Source: Pyrinomonadaceae bacterium (lineage in GTDB: Bacteria; Acidobacteriota; Blastocatellia; Pyrinomonadales; Pyrinomonadaceae). From it: a DNA stretch of 22,060 bases. Below the pieces are notes generated by a model, which saw nothing but the letters and a program-made list of their open reading frames with translations, was not told the DNA's origin and searched no databases. A program made the translations under genes and the position numbers. How positions within the stretch are numbered: the first letter of the stretch is position 1; every line of letters begins with the position of its first letter. Positions 9,935 through 22,060 of this stretch are shown here, piece after piece. Location: contig JAUZFQ010000280.1 in NCBI GenBank assembly GCA_030838445.1, positions 1 to 22,060 of the forward strand, written 5' to 3'.

Positions 9935-10210
9935 ATGGCAAGTGAGGCGCGCGAAAAGCCTCTGCGTTTGGCCGAAAAGCTGCTGCTCATTCGGACTGCG
10001 CTTGGCCTGTCTCAGAGTGAAATGCTCAAGCGCATAGGCGCTGAAAACAAGATGGCTTACTACAGGATTTCAGAATTTGAGAACGGGAAAGGAGAGCCAT
10101 CCTTGCCCGTTCTCTTACAGTACGCGCGTGTCGCGGGGGTCTGTGTGGACGTACTGATTGACGACGAACTCGACCTGCCCGCGAAACTGCCGGGTAAGCC
10201 GAAACACTAA
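9935..10210 (+). CDS. XRE/Cro-C1-family helix-turn-helix DNA-binding protein (91 aa)
   Basis: AGGAGG SD. The HTH_3-like pattern is LLLIRTALGLSQSEMLKRIGAENKMAYYRISEFENGKGEPSLPVLLQYARVAGVCVDVLI. Confidence 0.85.
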   Translation: MASEAREKPLRLAEKLLLIRTALGLSQSEMLKRIGAENKMAYYRISEFENGKGEPSLPVLLQYARVAGVCVDVLIDDELDLPAKLPGKPKH

Positions 10211-10261
10211 GCAATGCCTCGCACACAGTCATAAAAGGTGGCCTCGCCTTCTCTCAAGACG

Positions 10262-10576
10262 AACGGTTTGAAGTTTCAACTGGCTTCCTTAAACTTTCAA
10301 CCGCACGGTTTGAAGTTTCAACCGGCTTCCTTAAAGTTTCAACCGGGTGGTTGGAATCTTCAACCGGCTTCCTTAAAGTTCAGGAAGGTGGTTTGAAGTT
10401 TCAACCGGCTTCCTTAAAGTCTCAGGAGTGCGGTTGAAACTTCAAACCAGTCTCCTTAAGTTTTAAGGAAGGCGGTTGAAACTTCAAACTTGCTTCCTTA
10501 AAACTTAAGGAGCACGGTTGAAAGTTCAAACCAGTCTCCTTAAAGTTTCAGGAAGCCGGTTGAAACTTCAAACCGG
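10262..10576. repeat. 7.5 x 42-bp (15 x 21-bp) array of two alternating palindromic motifs, with an orientation flip of motif A
   Basis: Motif A, GGTTTGAAGTTTCAACC, starts at 10265, 10307, 10349 and 10390. Its reverse complement, GGTTGAAACTTCAAACC, starts at 10432, 10474, 10516 and 10558. Spacings are 42, 42, 41, 42, 42, 42 and 42 bp. Motif B, C(T)TCCTTAA(A)G.., starts at 10284, 10326, 10368, 10409, 10452, 10493 and 10536, always in the same orientation. Degenerate remnants continue to about 10710. Confidence 0.9.
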
Positions 10577-10740
10577 ACACTCACACATTCCGGCGGGGCG
10601 ACGAATTAAGCAAACGCTCCGTTTGAATCTTTTCGCTAACCTGTTCAGACATCAAACCGCGTGCCTTACTACCTCAACTCGCGCGTTTGAGTTTGAACTT
10701 TCCTCTAACCCGTTCTTCACCAAAGAAGGAGCTAAGCCTC

Positions 10741-11357: not shown

Positions 11358-12830
11358 ATGGGAAATCTGAATATTGATCGGTATCACGCGACGATGGGCG
11401 ATGCGTCGTTCAAGGATGAGACGCGTCTGCACGATAAACGCTTGAGCGAGGCGGAGGCGACGTTTTATGTGACGCAGCGGAAGTTGCCGTTCGCGCCGTG
11501 TCTGGGGCACGGGCGGTTGGTGCGCCTGATGGCGGAGGGCGGAATTGACCGGCCGCGCCTGCGCTTTCTCGAACAGGATCGAGGGGGCTTGGAGCGGTTC
11601 GCGCAGGCTGTGGAGGACATGAGTTTCGTCGGGGCGGTGCGGGCGGTGCGACCGGCGACGATCATGTTTGCGGGCGAGCCGTTCGCGGACATCACGGGGG
11701 CGTTCGGGTTGACGCAGGCGCAGGAGATCAAGTTTGAGCACGCCTTCGATCTGCCGATGACGACGGCGGCCATCGCGATGCAGTTGCGGATGGCGGCGGG
11801 CGAGACGCGCTGGCTCTCCGACTTCAGCTTGCGGCGCAACGGCGACATCGAGCGCGCCGTCGAAGTCGCCACCTATGCCTTTATCGGCGGGTTCAACGAC
11901 ACGTCGAACATGGAGGCGGCGCACCGTCTGGACATCCCGGCCGTCGGCACGTCGGCGCACTACTGGCAGCAGGCGTTCATCGAGTTTATGGACGAGCCGG
12001 AGATCGAGCCGCGCACGGGCAAGCCGAAACATTTCGAGCAGGTCGCCTTCGAGCGCTGGCTCGACGCGAACCCGCAGGGGACGACGCTCCTGCTCGACAC
12101 GATCAACGTCTACACGGGCGCGGCGCACGCGGCGATGGCCGCCACTTCTACGGACGCGCGCCGCCGCGCCTTCAAGGGCTTTCGCGTGGATTCGGGCGAC
12201 CTCGCGCAACTCGGCGCGTGGTGCTTGCGCTTCTTCGAGGCGAACGGTCTCGAAGGGTTGATGCCGGTGTTGACGGGCGATCTGGATGTGGAGGGCGTCA
12301 AGCGGATCGTGGCGGAGTTTCCGGAGGCCGCGGGGTTCGGCGTCGGCACGAAACTTTCCGGCGAGGTGCGGCGCGTGGCGGGCGTCATCTTCAAGCAATG
12401 TTTGATTGACGGCCGCCCGACGCTCAAGGCTTCCAACACGCCGGAGAAGTCAACGCTGCCCGGCCGCCTGCAAGTGTTTCGCGGCGCGGACGCGCAGGGC
12501 AATTACGTCGGCGACGTGATCGGTCTCGACGGCGAAGAGATCGACATTCCCGGCGCGGCCACCGTCGAGCCGCTCCTCGCGCCGTTCTGGGAACGCGGCC
12601 GCTACGATTCCATCCCGTCTATTACTAAACTGAAAGCCTTCGTCGAAGAACAGCGCACGCGTTTCCGCGACATCGAAAACTACCCGCACGAGTTGAGCGA
12701 CAAGTTGCGAAAGTTGCGCGACGAACTGACGGCACGCATGCGCGCCGACGAGTCGGACTGGCGCGCAGTGTTGCGCGTGCCGGAAGAGTTTGCCGAAGCG
12801 ACAACGCACGTGCCGTCGAAACAAAGTTAA
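11358..12830 (+). CDS. pncB: Nicotinate phosphoribosyltransferase-family protein
   Basis: A 490-aa protein with the N-terminal pattern DRYHATMG, the AVGTSAHYWQQAF block (the GT.AH motif typical of NAPRTases), LLLDT and FRVDSGD. I read these as type II PRTase family blocks. I did not verify substrate specificity. Confidence 0.8.
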   Translation: MGNLNIDRYHATMGDASFKDETRLHDKRLSEAEATFYVTQRKLPFAPCLGHGRLVRLMAEGGIDRPRLRFLEQDRGGLERFAQAVEDMSFVGAVRAVRPATIMFAGEPFADITGAFGLTQAQEIKFEHAFDLPMTTAAIAMQLRMAAGETRWLSDFSLRRNGDIERAVEVATYAFIGGFNDTSNMEAAHRLDIPAVGTSAHYWQQAFIEFMDEPEIEPRTGKPKHFEQVAFERWLDANPQGTTLLLDTINVYTGAAHAAMAATSTDARRRAFKGFRVDSGDLAQLGAWCLRFFEANGLEGLMPVLTGDLDVEGVKRIVAEFPEAAGFGVGTKLSGEVRRVAGVIFKQCLIDGRPTLKASNTPEKSTLPGRLQVFRGADAQGNYVGDVIGLDGEEIDIPGAATVEPLLAPFWERGRYDSIPSITKLKAFVEEQRTRFRDIENYPHELSDKLRKLRDELTARMRADESDWRAVLRVPEEFAEATTHVPSKQS

Positions 12831-12897
12831 GGCGTCGGCGCAGTCGTCATCGAAACAAAGTTGAGGCGTCGGCGCACGTGCCGTCGAAACAAAGTTA
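12806..12897. repeat. 34-bp tandem repeat (2.7 copies) overlapping the 3' end of pncB
   Basis: Copies are GCACGTGCCGTCGAAACAAAGTTAAGGCGTCGGC (12806-12839), GCAGTCGTCATCGAAACAAAGTTGAGGCGTCGGC (12840-12873) and GCACGTGCCGTCGAAACAAAGTTA (12874-12897). Copy 1 contains the pncB stop codon. Confidence 0.85.
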
Positions 12898-15446: not shown

Positions 15447-15533
15447 TTCATCCTTTCCTCCCCCGTGGCTACTTTTCCCCCGGCGCACTTTGCGGTTATC
15501 CTCTTCCAAATTTCCCGTTTGAAGAAGGCACAC

Positions 15534-16928
15534 ATGAAAACATCTCTGACGACCGACAACACGCGCGACACCATCGCCCGTCTGCAACAGGCCAACACGG
15601 AGTTTGCGCGCGTCTACCCCGGCGAGACCGGGCGACGCCAGCCCGTCCACACCGTCTACGGCGGCGCGCACCTCTTCAAGGCCGACACGCCCCGCCGCCT
15701 CGGCTCGCTCGCCCTGCGCTCACTCGAACAGTTCGCCCCCGACGCCGACGCCTTCGCGCGCGCCCTCGGCCTCTCGTTCGCCGCCGAAGGCTCGTCCGGC
15801 GATGAGTCAACATCCGCACTCGCGCGCACCATCTACGAGCGCGTGCGCGAGAAACTCGGACGCGAGCCGGTCGAAGATTTCCGCATTGACTTCGAGGACG
15901 GTTACGGCAACCGCCCCGACGCCGAAGAGGACGCCCACGCCGAGGCCGCCGCGCGCGAGGTGGCGCGCGGCGTGGAGGCGGGCACGCTCTCGCCCTTCGT
16001 CGGCATCCGCATCAAGCCCTTCACCGAAGAACTGCGCGCCCGCAGCCTGCGCACGCTCGACATCTTCGTCTCCACGCTTGCCGCCGAAATGGGCGGACGG
16101 ATGCCGCCGAACTTCGTCGTCACGCTGCCCAAGATCACCATCCCCGAACAGACCGCCGCGCTCGCTAGAATCTTCGATCTGCTCGAATCACAACTCTCGC
16201 TCCCCGCGGGCACGCTCAAGTTGGAGATGATGGTCGAGACTACACAGTCAATCATCAACCGCGACGGGCAGGCCAACCTGCCGCTCCTGCTCGCCGCCGC
16301 GCGCGGCCGCTGCACCGCCGCGCACTTCGGCACTTACGACTACACCGCCAGTTGCAACATCACGGCCGCGCACCAGCACATGCTTCACCACTCCTGCACG
16401 TTCGCCAAGCTCATGATGCAGGTCGCCTTCGCGGGCACGGGCGTCTGGCTCTCCGACGGCGCGACCAACATCATGCCCGTCGCCCCGCACCGCGCCGCCG
16501 AAGGCGCGCCGCTCACACCCGCGCAGGAAGCGGAGAACCAACGCACCGTCCACCGCGCGTGGCGCATCCACTACGAGCACGTCGAACACTCGCTCACCGG
16601 CGGCTTCTATCAGGGCTGGGATTTACACCCCGCCCAACTCCCCACCCGCTACGCCGCCGTCTACGCCTTCTTCCTACAGAGCCTCGACGCCGCAAGCGAG
16701 CGCCTCCGCAACTTCGTCGAGAAGGCCGCCAAGGCCACGCTCGTCGGCGACGTGTTCGACGACGCGGCAACAGGTCAGGGCTTGCTCAACTATTTCCTCC
16801 GCGCCATCAACTGCGGCGCGATCACAGAGGAGGAAGCCTTACAGCGTTCCAGCCTCACGCTCCCCGAACTGCGCTCCGGCTCGTTCGTCAAAATTCTCAA
16901 CAACCGTCAGAACCTGTCGAGCACTTAG
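15534..16928 (+). CDS. CitE/HpcH-HpaI-like (PEP/pyruvate-binding TIM-barrel) lyase-fold protein, function unknown
   Basis: I prefer the ATG at 15534 (GAAGG upstream); 15465 is an alternative. The blocks FRIDFEDGYG, LEMMVETTQS and AAHFGTYDYTAS resemble the E / E / D metal-binding and catalytic blocks of citrate-lyase-beta and malyl-CoA-lyase-type enzymes. This was read by eye only. Confidence 0.55.
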   Translation: MKTSLTTDNTRDTIARLQQANTEFARVYPGETGRRQPVHTVYGGAHLFKADTPRRLGSLALRSLEQFAPDADAFARALGLSFAAEGSSGDESTSALARTIYERVREKLGREPVEDFRIDFEDGYGNRPDAEEDAHAEAAAREVARGVEAGTLSPFVGIRIKPFTEELRARSLRTLDIFVSTLAAEMGGRMPPNFVVTLPKITIPEQTAALARIFDLLESQLSLPAGTLKLEMMVETTQSIINRDGQANLPLLLAAARGRCTAAHFGTYDYTASCNITAAHQHMLHHSCTFAKLMMQVAFAGTGVWLSDGATNIMPVAPHRAAEGAPLTPAQEAENQRTVHRAWRIHYEHVEHSLTGGFYQGWDLHPAQLPTRYAAVYAFFLQSLDAASERLRNFVEKAAKATLVGDVFDDAATGQGLLNYFLRAINCGAITEEEALQRSSLTLPELRSGSFVKILNNRQNLSST

Positions 16929-17174: not shown

Positions 17175-17636
17175 ATGAGAAGCAATAGTGGTTTGAAGAC
17201 GAAGGCGTTGATGTTTGCGATGGGTGCGTTCATGCTTGTGCCGACGGCGACGTTTGCGCAGGATTGGCGCTACGGTCAGGACAGGCGCGATGAGCGTCGT
17301 GACGACAGGCGCGACCGCCGTCAGGACAGGCGCGAAGACCGGCAGGAGCGACGCGAGGAACGCAGGGCGCGCCGCGGCAACAGCTACGACGGCTACCCGA
17401 ACTACGGCGGCACGTTCCAGCTTCGCCAGACGGCCTTGAACGCCGGTTACAACGAAGGCATCAAGGAAGGTCGCAAGGATCGTTCGCGCAACGAGCGTTA
17501 CGACTTCAGCGACGAGAGCGTCTACCGCAGCGGCACGAAGGACTACAGCTCGCGCCTCGGCGACCGCTCGCTGTACCAGCGCTACCTCCGCATGGCCTTC
17601 GAGAACGGCTACAACGACGGCTACAGCGGCTACTAA
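17175..17636 (+). CDS. Secreted protein with an Arg/Asp/Glu zwitterionic repeat and two GYN(D/E)G motifs
   Basis: Signal peptide KALMFAMGAFMLVPTATFA|QD. This is followed by DRRDERRDDRRDRRQDRREDRQERREERRARRG. The DNA contains GACAGGCGCGA three times. The C-terminal part contains AGYNEGIKEG and ENGYNDGYSGY. Confidence 0.7.
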   Translation: MRSNSGLKTKALMFAMGAFMLVPTATFAQDWRYGQDRRDERRDDRRDRRQDRREDRQERREERRARRGNSYDGYPNYGGTFQLRQTALNAGYNEGIKEGRKDRSRNERYDFSDESVYRSGTKDYSSRLGDRSLYQRYLRMAFENGYNDGYSGY

Positions 17637-17661
17637 AATTTAGCCGACAACATTACAAAGA

Positions 17662-17704
17662 CGAACGGGAGCGGGAGACGCGATTGTCTTCCCACTCCCG
17701 TTCG
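17662..17704 (+). terminator. Imperfect hairpin terminator
   Basis: CGAACGGGAGCGGGAGAC (17662-17679) pairs with GTCTTCCCACTCCCGTTCG (17686-17704), with one mismatch and one bulge. It is followed by CTTTAT. Confidence 0.55.
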
Positions 17705-17710
17705 CTTTAT

Positions 17711-17780
17711 GAGTTTCAAGTTTCAAGTTAAAGAACGAAAGAACCTCAGACTTGAAACTTGAAACCTGAAACTTGAAACC
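17711..17780. repeat. GTTTCAAG-type hairpin element, family H, copy 1
   Basis: GTTTCAAGTTTCAAGT (17713-17728) pairs perfectly with ACTTGAAACTTGAAAC (17750-17765). The 21-nt loop is TAAAGAACGAAAGAACCTCAG, and extra CTGAAACTTGAAACC units follow. It lies just past the 3' end of the puuD-like gene. Confidence 0.85.
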
Positions 17781-17801
17781 GTGTTCAGACCTGAAACTTC
17801 T

Positions 17802-18617
17802 TCACGCGCGCCGGATGAACTTGGCGGCCACCCAGCCGACGAGAATCAAGATTGAGAGGATGATCCAGTCGTAGCGGCTGCCGTAGGTGGCGGTCGGGAA
17901 GTGGTTGCTGATCATGGTGAAGACGACTGGCACGACCATGAACGTGTTCTGCTTGGAGCGGAGTTTGGCCTGCGCGCCGAGCCGCGCGTCGGGCGTCTCG
18001 CCCGCGCTCGTCGCGGCGATCATGCGGCGTTGCGCGGGGAGGATACGCATCCACACGTTGGCGACCATCAGCGTCCCCAACAGCGCGCCCATGTGGATGT
18101 AGGCGGCGCGCCCGCTCAGCGTGTGCGTCAACAGGTATGCGACGCCGACCAGGAGCGCGTAGGCGACGACGGCGAATGCCACCTCGTTGCGGCCGAGCGG
18201 CGAGAGCATCAACAGATCGTAGACGACCCAGCCGATGACGAGCAGCCCGATGCTGAACCCGATAGCGGCGGGCACGCTGATGTCTCGCACGTCCGGGTCA
18301 ACGAGCGCGCCGCCGAGGTAGTAGACGACGATGAGCAAGACCATCCCGCTCAGCCACGTCAACCCGGCCTCCCAGCGAAACCAGTGGAGCGTCTGTGTCC
18401 CCGGCTGCTTCTGTTTTTCCACCACGTAGAAGCCGCCGCTATGCACCATCCAGACCTGCGGCTTCTCGCCCACTGCCGTTGTCGCTTCGGCTTCGGAGAG
18501 GCGCGCGTCAAGCCAGGTGAAGTAGTAGGTCGTGCCGACCCAGAGGATGCCCGCGAAGACGTGAAACCAGCGCGCGAAGAGGTTGAGCCATTCGCTCGTG
18601 TTGGGGTCGAGTGTCAT
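17802..18617 (-). CDS. puuD: PuuD-like membrane urate oxidase domain protein (Urate_ox_N/DUF989-like), without a cytochrome c domain
   Basis: The N-terminus WLNLFARWFHVFAGILWVGTTYYFTWLDARL matches my memory of the conserved start of PuuD-family proteins. It is a multi-pass membrane protein. GGGAG SD. The start is 4 nt downstream of the uraH stop. The protein contains no Cys, so it has no CxxCH motif. Confidence 0.6.
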   Translation of the reverse strand: MTLDPNTSEWLNLFARWFHVFAGILWVGTTYYFTWLDARLSEAEATTAVGEKPQVWMVHSGGFYVVEKQKQPGTQTLHWFRWEAGLTWLSGMVLLIVVYYLGGALVDPDVRDISVPAAIGFSIGLLVIGWVVYDLLMLSPLGRNEVAFAVVAYALLVGVAYLLTHTLSGRAAYIHMGALLGTLMVANVWMRILPAQRRMIAATSAGETPDARLGAQAKLRSKQNTFMVVPVVFTMISNHFPTATYGSRYDWIILSILILVGWVAAKFIRRA

Positions 18618-18620
18618 TCG

Positions 18621-18962
18621 TTAACTCCCGCGATAGGTGGAATAGCCGAAGGGGCTGACGAGCAGCGGCACGTGGTAATGCGCCGCCGCGTCCGAGACGA
18701 TGAAGATGATCGAGACTTCCGGGTAAAAACTCTCGCCCCCCTGCGCCACGAAATAATCGGCCGTGTGGAACGTGAGTCGGTATGCACCCTCCCGCAAGTC
18801 GAACCCGGCAGGCAACAAATCTCTCAGCCGCCCGTCAGCGTCCGTCGTGCCCTGCCCTAACATTCCCCACGCCTCATACCCACGGACTTCGAGTGTGACG
18901 CGCACGCCCGCCGCCGGACGCCCGCGCGACGTGTCGAGAATGTGTGTGGTGATGGCGCTCAT
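18621..18962 (-). CDS. uraH: 5-hydroxyisourate hydrolase (transthyretin-like)
   Basis: A 113-aa protein. The N-terminal block is THILDTSRGRPAAGVRV, and the family-diagnostic C-terminus is YSTYRGS. Confidence 0.9.
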   Translation of the reverse strand: MSAITTHILDTSRGRPAAGVRVTLEVRGYEAWGMLGQGTTDADGRLRDLLPAGFDLREGAYRLTFHTADYFVAQGGESFYPEVSIIFIVSDAAAHYHVPLLVSPFGYSTYRGS

Positions 18963-18970
18963 AAGAAAAT

Positions 18971-19093
18971 AGTTTCAGGTTGAAGGTTTCAAGTTTCAAG
19001 TTTAAGACAAAGAACCAGAACCACAGTCCCGAACTTCCAAGTTAAAGAACGAAGAACCTCAGTCTTGAAACCTGAAACTTGAAACTTGAAACT
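18971..19093. repeat. GTTTCAAG-type hairpin element, family H, copy 2
   Basis: GTTTCAAGTTTCAAGTTT (18986-19003) pairs with AAACTTGAAACTTGAAAC (19075-19092). The interior carries the shared core GTTAAAGAACGAAGAACCTCAG. It occupies nearly all of the 139-nt uraD-uraH gap. Confidence 0.85.
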
Positions 19094-19101
19094 TTACCGC
19101 A

Positions 19102-19611
19102 TCAGGTCAACAACTTTTCCAGCCGGAGTTTTGTGATCTTGCTTTGTTCTTCGGCAGCGGTGCGGAGTTCCGCGCCCGGCTCGTTGGGGAGACGCGCATG
19201 CAGGAGCGCGAGCATCTCTGCGGCCGTCTTGCCCGTCGCGCAGACGATGAAGATGTGGCCGAACTTCTCCTCATAGGTGCGGTTGGCTGCGTCGAGTTCG
19301 TCGAGCGTCGCCTGCGCCGCGTCGCGCGCGCCCGCCTGTTCCTGCTCCGACCAACCTTCGGCCTGCGCGTGCTGCTCGCGCGCGGCCTTGCGCCCGCCGA
19401 TCTTCGGGTGCGCGGCGAACGCTTCGAGCCAGTCGCGCCCGCTCAAGCTCCACCACACGTCGTCGGCCGCCGCGAACAACTCCGTTGCGTCGCCGAACGG
19501 ACGCCGCGCCGCGAGCGCACGCGCCCACCGCGTCGAGCCGCAGCACTTGAGCAGTTCTGTCTCAGCCGCCGCCGCGTCCAAAGAGTTCAGGCGTTCGAGC
19601 GCTTCGATCAT
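19102..19611 (-). CDS. uraD: OHCU (2-oxo-4-hydroxy-4-carboxy-5-ureidoimidazoline) decarboxylase
   Basis: A 169-aa protein. The blocks AAHPKIGG and FGHIFIVCATGKTAAEML match OHCU decarboxylase family blocks, and the operon context supports the call. Confidence 0.85.
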   Translation of the reverse strand: MIEALERLNSLDAAAAETELLKCCGSTRWARALAARRPFGDATELFAAADDVWWSLSGRDWLEAFAAHPKIGGRKAAREQHAQAEGWSEQEQAGARDAAQATLDELDAANRTYEEKFGHIFIVCATGKTAAEMLALLHARLPNEPGAELRTAAEEQSKITKLRLEKLLT

Positions 19612-19615
19612 CTTG

Positions 19616-19706
19616 GTTTCAAGTTTCAGGTTTCAAGTTTCAAGTTCAAAGCCAAGACCAAGACGAAGAACCTCAGTCCTGAAACTTGAAACCTGAAACT
19701 TGAAAC
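19616..19706. repeat. GTTTCAAG-type hairpin element, family H, copy 3
   Basis: Perfect 27-bp stem: GTTTCAAGTTTCAGGTTTCAAGTTTCA (19616-19642) pairs with TGAAACTTGAAACCTGAAACTTGAAAC (19680-19706). The 37-nt loop ends in ..GACGAAGAACCTCAGTC. It fills the alc-uraD gap to the nucleotide. Confidence 0.9.
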
Positions 19707-20720
19707 TTATTCCTCTTCGACGCTCCCGTAGAGGCGCAGGCGACTGACGCCGCCGTCTGGGTAGATGTTGAAGCGCACGTGCGTGAGCGCGCCCGGCGCG
19801 TGTCGCAACTCGTCCGTGAAGTGGTGGCGCGTGTGTGCCTGCAACTTGGTGCGCGGCAGAATCTCCGTCCACGCGAGACTATCGAGCGCGCTTGCGTCGC
19901 CGCCATCAGCGGGCGCGTCCGCGCCTTCGAGCGAACAGCTTTCGGGAAAGTTGCCTTTGAAGTGAGACGTGTCAACTTCGACCTGATGAATCCGACCGCG
20001 CGCGCCGAGTTTGATGACGACCCAATCGTGGCCGGGGCCGCGTCGCCGCTTCGTCTCCCAGCCGTCGCTCATGTTGGCGGCGCGGCCGGGCATGATCAGA
20101 TTGTGGCGATGGCCGAAGAACATGTCGCTGCACGCGAGCACGAGTCCGCCCGACTCGACCGCCGCCAGATCAATGCGCCCGCCGCCCGCCGCCGCCGCGG
20201 TGCGCGCCCGGTCGGGCACGACCTCGCCGTAGACGCGCAGGCGCGCGACGCCGCCGTCCGGATAAATCTTGAAGCGCAGGTGCGTCGCGCGTTCGGTGTC
20301 TGCAATCGGAAACGGATTTTGCGAATCGCCGCGCAGGGCGGAGACGGGCAACACCTCGCGCCACTCGACCGCTTCGTCCAGCAGTTGCTCGATTGTGGGC
20401 TGGCCGTCCACGGCGCAGGCTTCGAGCGAACACTGCTCCGGGTAGTTGCCCTTGAAGAACGCGGTGTCAACGACGACGCCGCGAATGATACCGGGCAGGC
20501 CGAGCCGGATGACGCACCAGTCGAAGCCGGGCGTGCGCCGGCGGCGCGACTCCCAACCGTCCATCCACTTGCCGCGATCCGTGTACTCGCCTTCGAGGAA
20601 GACGGGCGCGCTCGCCTTCAACAGATTCTCCTTCGGCGCGAAGAAGTCGTCGTTGGCGTAAAGAACAGCGCCGCCCACGCGTTCAGCGGCCAGATCAACG
20701 AGTTCGGTAAAGTCCGTCAT
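19707..20720 (-). CDS. alc: Allantoicase
   Basis: Two internal allantoicase repeats are present (DGWESRRRR.. and DGWETKRRRGPGHDW..), with the repeated YPDGGV(A/S)RLR(V/L)YG. The start overlaps the allB stop (ATGA). Confidence 0.9.
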   Translation of the reverse strand: MTDFTELVDLAAERVGGAVLYANDDFFAPKENLLKASAPVFLEGEYTDRGKWMDGWESRRRRTPGFDWCVIRLGLPGIIRGVVVDTAFFKGNYPEQCSLEACAVDGQPTIEQLLDEAVEWREVLPVSALRGDSQNPFPIADTERATHLRFKIYPDGGVARLRVYGEVVPDRARTAAAAGGGRIDLAAVESGGLVLACSDMFFGHRHNLIMPGRAANMSDGWETKRRRGPGHDWVVIKLGARGRIHQVEVDTSHFKGNFPESCSLEGADAPADGGDASALDSLAWTEILPRTKLQAHTRHHFTDELRHAPGALTHVRFNIYPDGGVSRLRLYGSVEEE

Positions 20721-22060
20721 CGCTCCACACCTCGCGCGAGCAGAGCGCCCGCTGGTTCGTTCATAAACTCGCCGCGCTCGTAAATCTTCGCGCCGCGCAA
20801 ATAGGTCGCTTCAACTACGCCGCTCAAAGTTCGCCCCGCATACGGCGTCAACTTGTGACGATGCTCAAGCAACTCAGGCTCGACGCGAAACTGTTCGTCG
20901 GGTCGGAAGACGACGAGATCGGCGTCGCACCCGGCGCGAATCGCGCCCTTGCGCCCGTCCAACTCGACGAGACGCGCGGGCGCGGCGGCCACCCACTCCG
21001 CGACGCGCTCGATTGAATGGCCGCGCGCGCGCGCCTCCGTCCACACGGCGGGCAGGCGCAGTTGGAGCGAGGCGATGCCGCCCCACGCCTTGAGGAAGTC
21101 GCCCTCTTCGCGCCGCTTCAACTCCGGCGGGCACGGCGAATGATCGGAGACGATCATGTCGAGCGCGCCCGCGGCGAGCGCGTCCCAGAGTCGCTCGCGG
21201 TTCTCGCGCTCGCGCACGGGCGGGCAGCATTTAAATTCGGTCGCGCCGTCGGGCACGTCTTCCGCCGCGAACGTCAGGTAGTGCGGGCAGGTCTCGGCCG
21301 TGAACGGCAGCCCCTCGGCTTTCGCCGCGCGCAGCAGTTGGAGCGACGCGGACGACGAGTGATGCACGATGTGCGTGCGCGCGCCCGTCTCGCGGCACAG
21401 GCGCACCATCAAACGGACGGCTTCGTCCTCCGCCGCTTTGGGGCGCGACCGGAGAAACGTCTCGTAGCGACGCGCGCTGTTATCGTCGTCGTCGCCCGCG
21501 TGCTCGACGGCGGCGAGCGCAGCTTCAATCGGCGCGGGCGTCTCGGCGTGGACGATCAGGAGCGCGCCCATCTGTGCCAACTCCGGCATCGCCACGCGCA
21601 AGTCTTCTTCGGTGACGTGCGCGAACTCGTCAACGCCCGACGGCACGAGGAAACACTTGAAGCCGAACACGCCGCCCGCGTACATGCGCGGCAACTCCGC
21701 AGTGTTGCCCGGCACGACGCCGCCCCAGAAGCCCACGTCAACGTGACACTTCCCTTCTGCCGCCGCGCGCTTCGTCTCCAAATTCTCGCGCGTCGTCGTC
21801 GCCGGGATGCTGTTGAGCGGCATCTCGACGAGCGTCGTCACGCCCCCGGCCGCCGCGGCGCGCGTCGCCGTCTCGAAGCCTTCCCAGTCGGTGCGCCCCG
21901 GTTCGTTGATGTGGACGTGCGTGTCAACCAATCCCGGCAGGACGACCGCCGCGTCTTCAACTTCGACGAGCGGACGCCCGTGCGTCGTCCCGTCAAACTC
22001 CCCGACCATGACGATGCGACCCCCGCGGACGTGGATCGCCGCGGGCGCGCACCCGGCGGG
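20717..22060 (-). CDS. allB: Allantoinase, 5'-truncated by the window edge
   Basis: The amidohydrolase motif LPGLVDTHVHINEPGRTDWEGF is present, with later HAE, H.H and D.. blocks. The frame stays open beyond the listed ATG at 22009 to nt 22060 (..IHVRGGRIVMVGEFDG), which matches the usual allantoinase N-terminus. The true start therefore lies outside the window. Confidence 0.9.
   Translation of the reverse strand, partial: PAGCAPAAIHVRGGRIVMVGEFDGTTHGRPLVEVEDAAVVLPGLVDTHVHINEPGRTDWEGFETATRAAAAGGVTTLVEMPLNSIPATTTRENLETKRAAAEGKCHVDVGFWGGVVPGNTAELPRMYAGGVFGFKCFLVPSGVDEFAHVTEEDLRVAMPELAQMGALLIVHAETPAPIEAALAAVEHAGDDDDNSARRYETFLRSRPKAAEDEAVRLMVRLCRETGARTHIVHHSSSASLQLLRAAKAEGLPFTAETCPHYLTFAAEDVPDGATEFKCCPPVRERENRERLWDALAAGALDMIVSDHSPCPPELKRREEGDFLKAWGGIASLQLRLPAVWTEARARGHSIERVAEWVAAAPARLVELDGRKGAIRAGCDADLVVFRPDEQFRVEPELLEHRHKLTPYAGRTLSGVVEATYLRGAKIYERGEFMNEPAGALLARGVER

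What the first reader, a model, noticed from the sequence alone, without database searches (positions are those of the whole stretch)
17711..19706. Family of GTTTCAAG-repeat hairpin elements embedded in the uricolytic operon
Three elements share the same architecture (17711-17780, 18971-19093, 19616-19706). Each has a left arm of tandem GTTTCA(A/G)G octamers and a conserved core ..(G)AAGAACCTCAG. Each has a right arm of the complementary CTTGAAAC/CTGAAAC octamers. They give 16-, 18- and 27-bp perfect stems. All three sit on the same transcript: after puuD, between uraD and uraH, and between alc and uraD. Three copies within 2 kb of one operon and none in the other approximately 20 kb suggests a functional role, such as mRNA segment stability, processing or differential expression, as with REP/BIME elements. 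Random MITE insertion seems less likely.
Basis: partly seen in the sequence, partly recalled or inferred. Interest (0 to 1): 0.65.

Follow-up and report, generated by a model that had tools for sequence, protein, structure and literature searches.

The report
Dispersed heptamer-repeat hairpins at operon junctions
The three hairpins are real, but they are copies of a repeat family found in many unrelated operons of this soil acidobacterium and its relatives, wedged between one gene's stop codon and the next gene's start, not a control device special to uric-acid breakdown.

Summary
Three palindromic elements lie at 17711-17780, 18971-19093 and 19616-19706, on the transcript of an allantoinase-alc-uraD-uraH-puuD operon. 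Their arms are tandem HEPTAMERS, GTTTCA(A/G), not octamers. The operon-specific reading does not hold. The source is a soil Pyrinomonadaceae (Acidobacteriota). The same element, usually about 80 nt with a near-identical loop, sits at 16 sites on 15 contigs of one metagenome. Those sites include pstC-pstA, phoU-regulator, grpE-dnaK, purM-purN and nuoH-I-J. In DNA runs its depth is 25-110x that of the flanking genes. Placement is not random. 32 of 45 classifiable copies leave at most 30 nt on each side. The median gap is 3 nt after the stop codon and 5 nt before the next start, mostly without a Shine-Dalgarno sequence. The three uricolytic sites are occupied in relatives down to about 76% UraD identity. 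More distant relatives carry hairpins built from other repeats, or nothing (a 9-nt spacer). Loops flip orientation. Stems are 95% Watson-Crick with no excess of G-U over A-C, so the palindrome is kept at the DNA level. Best reading: a REP/MITE-like, self-maintaining palindrome family that is co-transcribed within operons. Its RNA effects (exonuclease barrier, RNase III site, stop-to-start bridging) are inferred, not shown.

The parts
19616..19706 (-). E3. A hairpin element that fills the alc-uraD spacer. It has 4+4 GTTTCAR/YTGAAAC heptamers and a 27-bp perfect stem. It starts 0 nt after the alc stop codon (TAA) and ends 4 nt before the uraD ATG.
   Evidence: (I5)
18971..19093 (-). E2. A hairpin element in the uraD-uraH spacer, lying 9 nt after the uraD TGA and 9 nt before the uraH ATG. 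The long loop appears to hold two core units, suggesting a fused double element.
17711..17799 (-). E1. A hairpin element in the puuD 3' UTR with a 17-bp perfect stem (17712-17728 pairing with 17750-17766). A degenerate extra heptamer stretch at 17781-17799 reaches to within a few nt of the puuD stop codon.
   Evidence: (D3)
17658..17705 (.). A G+C-rich hairpin (-33.6 kcal/mol, z = -6.5) between E1 and the convergent gene. It is probably a bidirectional terminator that ends the puuD transcript after E1. It is conserved in the orthologous loci.
17802..22009 (-). The operon that carries the elements: allantoinase 20717-22009, allantoicase 19707-20720, uraD 19102-19611, uraH 18621-18962 and puuD 17802-18617. 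Three xanthine dehydrogenase subunit genes lie upstream, outside the window.

Best explanation
E1-E3 are three copies of a dispersed, multi-copy family of DNA palindromes in Pyrinomonadaceae. A typical copy is about 80 nt.

Structure. Each copy has 3-4 tandem GTTTCA(A/G) heptamers, a loop of about 25 nt (consensus GGACTGAGGTTCTTCGTTCTTTAAC, itself roughly 7-nt periodic), and the complementary (C/T)TGAAAC heptamers.

How the family behaves. It resembles REP/REPIN/MITE-type repeats:
- It is copied or homogenised at the DNA level.
- Heptamer number changes by slippage.
- The loop can invert between the arms.
- It persists at the same sites for long periods.

Where copies survive. They are found almost only where they do no harm. 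That means inside transcription units, in the few nucleotides between a stop codon and the next start codon, or just after the last gene.

Consequence for the RNA (inferred). Because they are co-transcribed, each puts a long, self-contained, A/U-rich perfect hairpin into the polycistronic mRNA. The most likely effects are a barrier to 3'-5' exonucleases and/or an RNase III substrate, which would split the operon mRNA into segments of different stability. Folding also brings the upstream stop codon and the downstream start codon to the base of one stem, so the insertion does not uncouple the two genes.

The clustering of three copies here reflects a long operon with several non-overlapping junctions. 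It does not indicate a uricolysis-specific function.

Shown: family membership, dispersal, placement, positional conservation, and DNA-level symmetry. Inferred: the mode of spread and all RNA-level effects.
For: Dispersal and copy number:
- The arm-plus-core pattern hits 25 metagenome loci, 16 of them on 15 contigs of one sample. Their loops are near-identical and many copies are exactly 80 nt.
- In DNA runs X1 and X2 the depth over the elements is 25-110x that of the flanking genes, and 231 of 432 laid contigs fit two places.
- Excluding the ascertained copies, I estimate a background density of about 1 per 35-50 kb, which is of the order of 100 copies per genome (my estimate).
- Flanking genes are unrelated in function: pst permease pair, PhoU, GrpE-DnaK, PurM-PurN, NuoH-I-J.

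Placement:
- Of 45 classifiable copies, 36 are between co-directional genes, 6 convergent and 3 divergent. This matches the background of 163/27/20.
- 32 of 45 leave at most 30 nt on each side. Only 25% of element-free spacers are that short, and they hold 0.8% of intergenic bp (p = 7e-7).
- The median stop-to-element gap is 3 nt and the median element-to-start gap is 5 nt.

DNA-level maintenance:
- Stems have 844 Watson-Crick pairs out of 887.
- Sense-strand G-U pairs (14) do not exceed A-C mismatches (17).
- Loop orientation relative to the transcript is not fixed. It differs even at orthologous sites: after puuD in L121 versus the window, and at alc-uraD in L148 versus the window.

Persistence:
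- All three junctions are occupied in L121, L122, L124, L125 and L153 (UraD 76-95% identical to the window's; 4-fold site identity 0.73-0.89). The arms stay clean heptamers while the loops diverge.

Transcription:
- Element copies lie in the interior of 2.1-6.3 kb metatranscriptome contigs.

Not a terminator or known RNA:
- No terminator-like site overlaps the stems. There is no Rfam family match.
Against: - No transposase, target-site duplication or clean filled/empty pair with identical flanks was found, so mobility is inferred from dispersal and loop identity only.
- The strong bias to tight junctions and the long persistence of perfect arms could equally reflect positive selection for an RNA function.
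- At the same junctions, distant relatives carry hairpins built from other repeats: GTCTCAR, GAGTCTR, and the octamer CGCAAAGG. This looks like conservation of 'a repeat-armed hairpin here' rather than of one selfish family.
- 26 of 29 downstream genes, including dnaK and nuoI/J, have no Shine-Dalgarno-like motif between hairpin and start. The hairpin may therefore take part in initiation.
- No RNA-end or expression data exist for this organism.
- The copy-number estimate comes from mixed metagenomes, not a closed genome.
Confidence: 0.65

Rival explanations
1. The hairpins are a selected intercistronic expression module. By pairing, the arms put the upstream stop codon and the downstream start codon at the base of one helix. 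A terminating ribosome, which must already have opened the bottom of the stem, would then be handed to a start codon that lacks its own Shine-Dalgarno sequence. This is hairpin-bridged translational coupling or insulation. The 7-nt period places a TGA in all three frames just before the start.
For: - Geometry is flush. The median gap is 3 nt from the stop and 5 nt to the start, with several cases of 0-2 nt on both sides.
- 26 of 29 downstream genes have no SD-like motif after the hairpin.
- The junctions stay occupied across species, and in distant relatives by different repeat-armed hairpins.
- Other junction repeats seen, GTGATGA and CAGTAGN, also carry stop triplets. So does the published TAACTGA repeat, which lies just upstream of SD-less start codons (PMC4679880).
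- In divergent regions the hairpins still abut the start codons (L015).
Against: - E1 and its orthologues sit after the last gene, with no start codon to serve.
- The loop flips, and sense-strand G-U pairs show no excess over A-C mismatches, so there is no signature of selection on the sense RNA.
- An SD-like motif just upstream of the hairpin is no commoner than around control stop codons (8/29 versus 51/205).
- SD-like motifs are infrequent in this lineage anyway (68/187 control starts).
- One relative manages the alc-uraD junction with a plain 9-nt spacer (L154).
Confidence: 0.18
2. The three hairpins are a regulatory device specific to the uricolytic operon, tuning segment stability or differential expression of alc, uraD, uraH and puuD.
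For: - There are three copies in 2 kb of the window and none of this type in the other 20 kb.
- The same three junctions are occupied in related genomes.
Against: - The same element, with the same loop, lies in pst, phoU, grpE-dnaK, purMN, nuoHIJ and other operons.
- Depth in DNA runs shows a high-copy repeat.
- Pairs of copies 0.6-2.6 kb apart occur in other gene clusters too.
- At a density of about 1 per 35-50 kb, I estimate that a cluster of three in one 8-kb operon would arise by chance about once per one or two genomes.
Confidence: 0.04
3. The elements act mainly as double-stranded DNA. They would be binding or structural sites for a protein such as a nucleoid protein, gyrase, IHF or a recombinase (as proposed for BIMEs), or sites of cruciform extrusion. 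The RNA hairpin would be incidental.
For: - Symmetry is kept equally on both strands.
- The loop consensus is conserved across copies and genomes although its orientation varies.
- The same GTTTCAR arms, with different loops, occur in Flavobacterium and other phyla. This could reflect recognition of the arms by a conserved protein.
Against: - No candidate protein was identified.
- Placement is tied to codon boundaries, not to any DNA landmark.
- Orientation classes simply mirror the background.
Confidence: 0.08
4. The elements are not mobile at all. Each arose in place by microsatellite-like expansion of heptamers plus hairpin-templated copying, and similar sequences in different operons are convergent.
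For: - Heptamer number varies between orthologues (3 to 7 per arm).
- Different heptamers occupy the same junction in different lineages.
- There are no target-site duplications (by eye).
Against: - A 25-nt non-repetitive loop consensus is shared by well over a dozen unlinked sites in one metagenome and by the three window copies. Independent origin cannot explain this.
- The modal length of exactly 80 nt points the same way.
Confidence: 0.05

Closest known systems
REP/BIME elements and REPINs of Proteobacteria (Bertels & Rainey 2011, PMC3116915)
   Same: Short, high-copy, extragenic palindromes that fold as hairpins in ssDNA or mRNA. They are often inside transcription units, are species-specific in consensus, and are conserved in place. 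In E. coli they are proposed to stabilise upstream mRNA segments (this last point from my own knowledge).
   Different: - The arms here are tandem heptamers that are not themselves palindromic, whereas a REPIN is two inverted REP palindromes.
- The elements are A/T-rich in a 63% G+C genome.
- There is no GTAG/CGTC end tag.
- No RAYT link has been shown.
- REPINs were reported as randomly distributed in extragenic space (PMC3116915). These are concentrated in spacers of at most 30 nt.
Correia/CREE (NEMIS) MITEs of Neisseria (PMC2649163)
   Same: Dispersed inverted-repeat elements of about 100 nt. They are often co-transcribed with neighbouring genes, fold into long hairpins, and are bound or cut by RNase III, changing the expression of adjacent genes.
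   Different: - There is no sequence similarity.
- Correia elements have 26-bp terminal repeats, TA duplications and an IHF site, and can create promoters. None of these is seen here.
- RNase III cleavage here is only inferred from the 17-31 bp near-perfect stems.
TAACTGA heptamer direct repeats of Beggiatoaceae, Cyanobacteria and Bacteroidetes (MacGregor 2015, PMC4679880), and cyanobacterial STRR heptamer repeats (own knowledge)
   Same: - Tandem 7-nt repeats, intergenic, in many unrelated operons.
- They most often end a few nt before a start codon that lacks a Shine-Dalgarno sequence.
- Indels come in 7-nt steps between strains.
- They are present in distant phyla.
- The unit contains stop triplets.
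- Function is unknown.
   Different: - Those are direct arrays: only one inverted pair in 170 sets.
- Here two complementary arrays always face each other across a conserved loop, so the product is a long hairpin.
- The heptamer sequence is different.
Intrinsic (Rho-independent) terminators and intercistronic attenuator hairpins
   Same: A stem-loop after a stop codon. E2 is followed by a U-rich run (UAUUUUCUU).
   Different: - The stems are A/U-rich and very long.
- There is no consistent U tract.
- No terminator-like site overlaps the stems.
- Copies sit in front of essential downstream genes.
- E1 is followed by a separate canonical G+C-rich terminator hairpin.

Membership tests
REPIN / REP (BIME) | Each half is itself a short imperfect palindrome (a REP); two REPs in inverted orientation form the unit. 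| tested here: not met
   The arms are tandem GTTTCAR units with no internal self-complementarity. Only arm-to-arm pairing is found.
REPIN / REP (BIME) | High-copy, extragenic, dispersed through the genome. | tested here: met
   16 sites on 15 contigs of one metagenome. Depth is 25-110x the flanks. All copies are extragenic or overlap a stop codon by at most 11 nt.
REPIN / REP (BIME) | Association with a RAYT (REP-associated tyrosine transposase) gene flanked by the repeat. | not testable with these tools
None of the gene tables of the fetched operon loci lists a transposase next to an element.
REPIN / REP (BIME) | GTAG or CGTC tetranucleotide at one end (the two REP superfamilies, PMC3733652 abstract). 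| tested here: not met
   The elements begin GTTTCA and end TGAAAC.
MITE | Terminal inverted repeats bounding a short non-coding element present in many copies. | tested here: met
   Arms of 17-31 bp, 95% complementary. Multi-copy.
MITE | Target-site duplication flanking each copy. | tested here: not met
   No direct repeat is shared by the left and right flanks of the canonical 80-nt copies or of E1-E3, by inspection. Element ends are somewhat uncertain, so very short duplications cannot be excluded.
MITE | A cognate autonomous IS with the same terminal repeats. | not testable with these tools
   No whole-genome search was possible.
Heptamer tandem repeats near start codons (TAACTGA type, PMC4679880) | Tandem 7-nt unit, intergenic, ending within a few nt of a start codon that lacks an SD sequence. 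| tested here: met
   Period 7. Median of 5 nt to the start; 26 of 29 without an SD-like motif in between.
Heptamer tandem repeats near start codons (TAACTGA type, PMC4679880) | The unit is TAACTGA, arranged as direct repeats in one orientation towards the start codon. | tested here: not met
   The unit is GTTTCAR/YTGAAAC. Arrays are always paired in inverted orientation around a loop.
Intrinsic terminator | A G+C-rich stem followed directly by a U tract. | tested here: not met
   The only terminator-like hit lies inside the E2 loop, fewer hits than in shuffles. The stems are A/T-rich.
Any curated RNA family (Rfam 15) | Score at or above the family's gathering threshold. | tested here: not met
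   0 hits at gathering threshold. With the E-value threshold there are only sub-threshold matches to unrelated miRNA-precursor hairpins.

The most novel reading that the evidence does not exclude
Repeat-armed hairpins, here GTTTCAR and in relatives GTCTCAR, GAGTCTR or CGCAAAGG, are a general and so far undescribed class of intercistronic module. The idea is that Pyrinomonadaceae, and perhaps Flavobacterium and other phyla, use them in place of a Shine-Dalgarno sequence. The stem would place stop and start codons side by side for ribosome hand-over. The 7-nt period would supply stop codons in every frame. The long duplex would set mRNA segment boundaries. On this view the family is maintained by selection at operon junctions rather than by selfish spread.
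Probability: 0.15. Interest if true: 0.8.

Novelty: new variant of a known kind. Interest (0 to 1): 0.45.

Why it matters
For this operon, the hairpins should not be read as a uricolysis regulator.

More broadly, the data define a repeat family in a poorly studied soil phylum with three unusual properties.
- Its arms are made of tandem heptamers.
- It is placed almost exactly between stop and start codons of housekeeping operons, including grpE-dnaK and nuoH-I-J.
- At some of the same junctions (seen at uraD-uraH and alc-uraD), different lineages carry hairpins built from different repeats.

This links two separately described phenomena: REP/MITE-type palindromes, and heptamer arrays upstream of SD-less start codons. 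It also gives a concrete system for asking how genes directly behind a 20-30 bp perfect hairpin are translated, and whether such palindromes are tolerated parasites or operon punctuation.

Practically, these repeats break metagenome assemblies. Many contigs end in them.

Tried and rejected
- Split Shine-Dalgarno (SD, hairpin, AUG, as in phage T4 gene 38). It is attractive for E3, which reads GAGGAATAA|hairpin|CAAGATG, and is seen at L148, L127, L139 and L117. As a general rule it fails: SD-like motifs upstream of the hairpin occur in 8/29 cases versus 51/205 around control stop codons.
- RNA-specific selection on the stem. Sense-strand G-U pairs (14) show no excess over A-C mismatches (17).
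- Intrinsic terminator or attenuator. No consensus sites were found.
- Known RNA families. None matched.
- Integron attC sites and CRISPR. I considered these from memory and dropped them. The end sequences do not fit the attC core sites, the genes are housekeeping operons, and the period is 7 nt with no spacers.
- Direct RNA evidence. No RNA run covers the window well. X25 and X26 hold 5-6% of words and give only fragmentary contigs. No RNA run was found for the grpE-dnaK locus. Runs for the nuo locus are assembled contigs, which show transcription through elements but not RNA ends.
- Literature. Searches for the heptamer string and for repeats in Acidobacteria or Pyrinomonadaceae found no description of this family.
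- Per-genome census.
Full report
**What is there.** The window's last 4.3 kb carries five minus-strand genes. By Pfam they are an allantoinase-type amidohydrolase, allantoicase, OHCU decarboxylase (uraD), HIU hydrolase (uraH) and a PuuD-type membrane urate oxidase. On the source contig, three xanthine dehydrogenase subunit genes precede them.

Each has tandem GTTTCA(A/G) units, a loop, and the complementary (C/T)TGAAAC units. The unit is 7 nt, not 8 (TRF period 7). A two-unit probe with one mismatch hits 21 times, against 0.06 expected. Perfect stems are 17, 18 and 27 bp. The transcript-strand folds have z-scores of -3.3 to -6.0. All three share the loop core CTGAGGTTCTT on the transcript strand.
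- E3 begins immediately after the alc stop codon and ends 4 nt before the uraD ATG.
- E2 lies 9 nt from both the uraD stop and the uraH start.
- E1 follows puuD and is itself followed by a separate G+C-rich hairpin that looks like a bidirectional terminator.

**Whose genome.** The window is part of a 24.8-kb JGI soil-metagenome contig. The closest UraD homologues are named Pyrinomonadaceae or Acidobacteriota by their sources.

**The family is dispersed, not operon-specific.**
These included many Pyrinomonadaceae and other Acidobacteriota with the full hairpin architecture. Many Flavobacterium carry the same arms but different loops.
- A more specific pattern, two heptamers plus the loop core, found 25 metagenome loci. 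Sixteen lie on 15 contigs of a single sample. They share a near-identical loop (GGACTGAGGTTCTTCGTTCTTTAAC) and a modal length of exactly 80 nt.
- In two soil DNA runs that hold this organism or a close relative, summed contig depth over the elements is 25-110 times that over the flanking genes. More than half of the laid contigs fit two of the three elements.
- Counting only copies that were not the reason a locus was fetched gives about one per 35-50 kb, of the order of a hundred per genome. This is my rough estimate.
- Genes flanking other copies are two phosphate-transporter-type permeases, PhoU and a response regulator, GrpE and DnaK, PurM and PurN, and NuoH, NuoI and NuoJ.
- Pairs of copies 0.6-2.6 kb apart occur in several of these gene clusters. 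Three in a long operon is therefore not exceptional.

**Placement is strikingly non-random.** I used a simple GC3-based gene caller that reproduces the JGI calls in the window.
- 45 elements in Acidobacteriota loci could be classified: 36 between co-directional genes, 6 convergent, 3 divergent. These are the same proportions as element-free spacers (163/27/20).
- 32 of the 45 leave no more than 30 nt on either side. Only 25% of element-free spacers are that short, and they hold 0.8% of intergenic base pairs (p = 7e-7 against the 25% figure).
- For the 29 tight co-directional cases, the median gap is 3 nt from the stop codon to the hairpin and 5 nt from the hairpin to the next start codon.
- The stop-codon adjacency is not an artefact. 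The 5' arm contains no stop in any frame, whereas the 3' arm carries TGA in all three.
- Only 3 of 29 downstream genes have an SD-like motif between hairpin and start. SD-like motifs are not frequent in this lineage anyway (68 of 187 control starts, with imprecise start calls).

**Conservation.** Orthologous operons were fetched from eight other assemblies.
- In five of them all three junctions carry GTTTCAR hairpins. Their UraD is 76-95% identical to the window's and their 4-fold site identity to the window is 0.73-0.89. Heptamer numbers and loops differ between them.
- After puuD in the closest relative, the loop is the reverse complement of the window's. At alc-uraD in another relative it is likewise flipped.
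- More distant genomes differ. One (79%) has an octamer-armed hairpin (CGCAAAGG) at alc-uraD, a GTCTCAR-armed hairpin at uraD-uraH, and nothing after puuD. One (67%) has a GAGTCTR-armed hairpin at uraD-uraH. One (72%) has a plain 9-nt alc-uraD spacer.
- So the arms stay clean while neutral sites and loops diverge, and 'a repeat-armed hairpin at this junction' outlasts any one repeat.

**DNA or RNA?**
- Across 36 oriented elements the stems have 844 Watson-Crick pairs out of 887. The transition mismatches split 14 (G-U on the sense strand) to 17 (A-C on the sense strand, G-U on the antisense).
- Selection on the sense RNA alone would tolerate G-U and remove A-C. No such asymmetry is seen.
- Together with loop flipping, and loops found in both orientations relative to transcription, this says the symmetry is maintained on the duplex. 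Candidate processes are copying of a palindromic master, slippage, and hairpin-templated correction.
- The elements are nevertheless transcribed. Copies lie inside 2-6 kb metatranscriptome contigs, followed within a few nucleotides by ATG. Those libraries may contain some DNA.

**Mechanism.**
- Shown: a multi-copy palindrome family, confined to the codon-free slivers of transcription units, long-lived at its sites, and symmetric at the DNA level.
- Inferred: (a) it spreads or is homogenised like REP/REPIN/MITE elements, by an unidentified agent. (b) In the mRNA it forms a self-contained 17-31 bp duplex, which by established knowledge of RNase III and 3'-exonucleases should be a cleavage site and/or a decay barrier. 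(c) It is tolerated at junctions because folding restores stop-start proximity and does not sequester the start codon.
- I put 0.65 on this package.
- The main rival (0.18) is that the hairpins are selected for ribosome hand-over at SD-less starts. The flush geometry and the replacement by other repeat-armed hairpins support it. E1-type copies with no downstream gene, the missing RNA-strand signature and the hairpin-free junction in L154 count against it.
- The uricolysis-specific reading is essentially excluded.

**Comparison with known systems.** The elements work like REP/BIME/REPIN and Correia-type repeats, but fail defining features of each.
- The arms are not REP palindromes.
- There is no GTAG/CGTC tag.
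- There is no target-site duplication.
- No transposase is known.

They share the 7-nt tandem unit, start-codon proximity, lack of SD, 7-nt indels and cross-phylum occurrence with the TAACTGA repeats of Beggiatoaceae, Cyanobacteria and Bacteroidetes (PMC4679880). Those are direct arrays, not hairpins. No Rfam family matches. Literature searches found no description of this family. I therefore rate it a new variant of a known kind.

**Limits.**
- No closed genome could be censused.
- Gene starts come from a crude caller.
- Copy number comes from mixed communities.
- There are no RNA-end data.

Noticed in passing
window 10255-10585: A palindrome of about 310 nt built from a 42-nt unit (consensus about GGTTTGAAGTTTCAACCGGCTTCCTTAAAGTTTCAGGAAGG). 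About 3.8 units read forward, followed by the inverted copies. The DNA fold is -108 kcal/mol, z = -17.8. It lies between a small HTH_3 gene (9935-10210) and a 117-aa ORF, in the low-G+C part of the window. It shares the GTTTCAA/GTTTGAA motif with the hairpin arms. A spacer of the same size exists in the 95% relative L121.
   Followed up: partly
L001 2728-2865 (source contig, outside the window); also L125 5953-6150, L152 5600-5761 and 9877-10000, L153 5903-6040: A second hairpin family whose arms are tandem octamers, (CGCAAAGR)n ... (YCTTTGCG)n. It fills the spacer between the xanthine dehydrogenase large subunit and the Fer2 subunit. In L152 the same repeat occupies the alc-uraD junction instead of the heptamer element.
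   Followed up: partly
L152 10520-10628; L155 4241-4306; L154 10520-10835; RNA contig at L151 ~2308 (run X27): In relatives, junctions hold arrays or hairpins of other 7-nt units. At uraD-uraH these are GTCTCAR, GAGTCTR and CAGTAGN. At nuoI-nuoJ it is GTGATGA. Nearly all of these units contain a stop triplet, so the 7-nt period puts a stop in all three frames just upstream of the next start. Significance unknown.
   Followed up: partly
L004, L008, L010, L012, L019, L050, L052 and other Flavobacterium loci: Low-G+C Flavobacterium genomes carry hairpins with the same GTTTCAR/YTGAAAC arms. Their loops are short and unrelated. A T run flanks the 5' side and an A run the 3' side. One arm sometimes expands to more than 10 units. 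This is either cross-phylum sharing or convergence.
   Followed up: partly
window 17175-17636 (+): A 153-aa ORF with no Pfam match and a Tyr/Asn/Asp/Gly-rich repetitive C-terminus. It is conserved convergent to puuD in most of the related operon loci (L121, L122, L124, L125/L126, L152, L153). Its 3' end has by far the highest depth of the region in metatranscriptome run X26 (about 330-340, against 10 or less for the operon).
   Followed up: no
window 15465-16928 (+): A DUF6986 protein with weak malate-synthase TIM-barrel similarity. It is a conserved neighbour of the uricolytic operon in every related locus fetched. It may belong to the same pathway (glyoxylate or ureidoglycolate handling?).
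   Followed up: no
L154 1-2033, 6138-7526 and 12284-16195: In one relative the operon neighbourhood is interrupted by defence-type genes. These are McrBC upstream, a CAP12-PCTIR TIR-domain gene inserted between the XDH FAD subunit and allantoinase, and DUF4062/TIR genes downstream. This same relative lacks the heptamer hairpins.
   Followed up: no
window 12805-12897: A 34-nt tandem repeat (2.7 copies, 83% matches) spanning the end of, and lying just downstream of, the NAPRTase gene.
   Followed up: no
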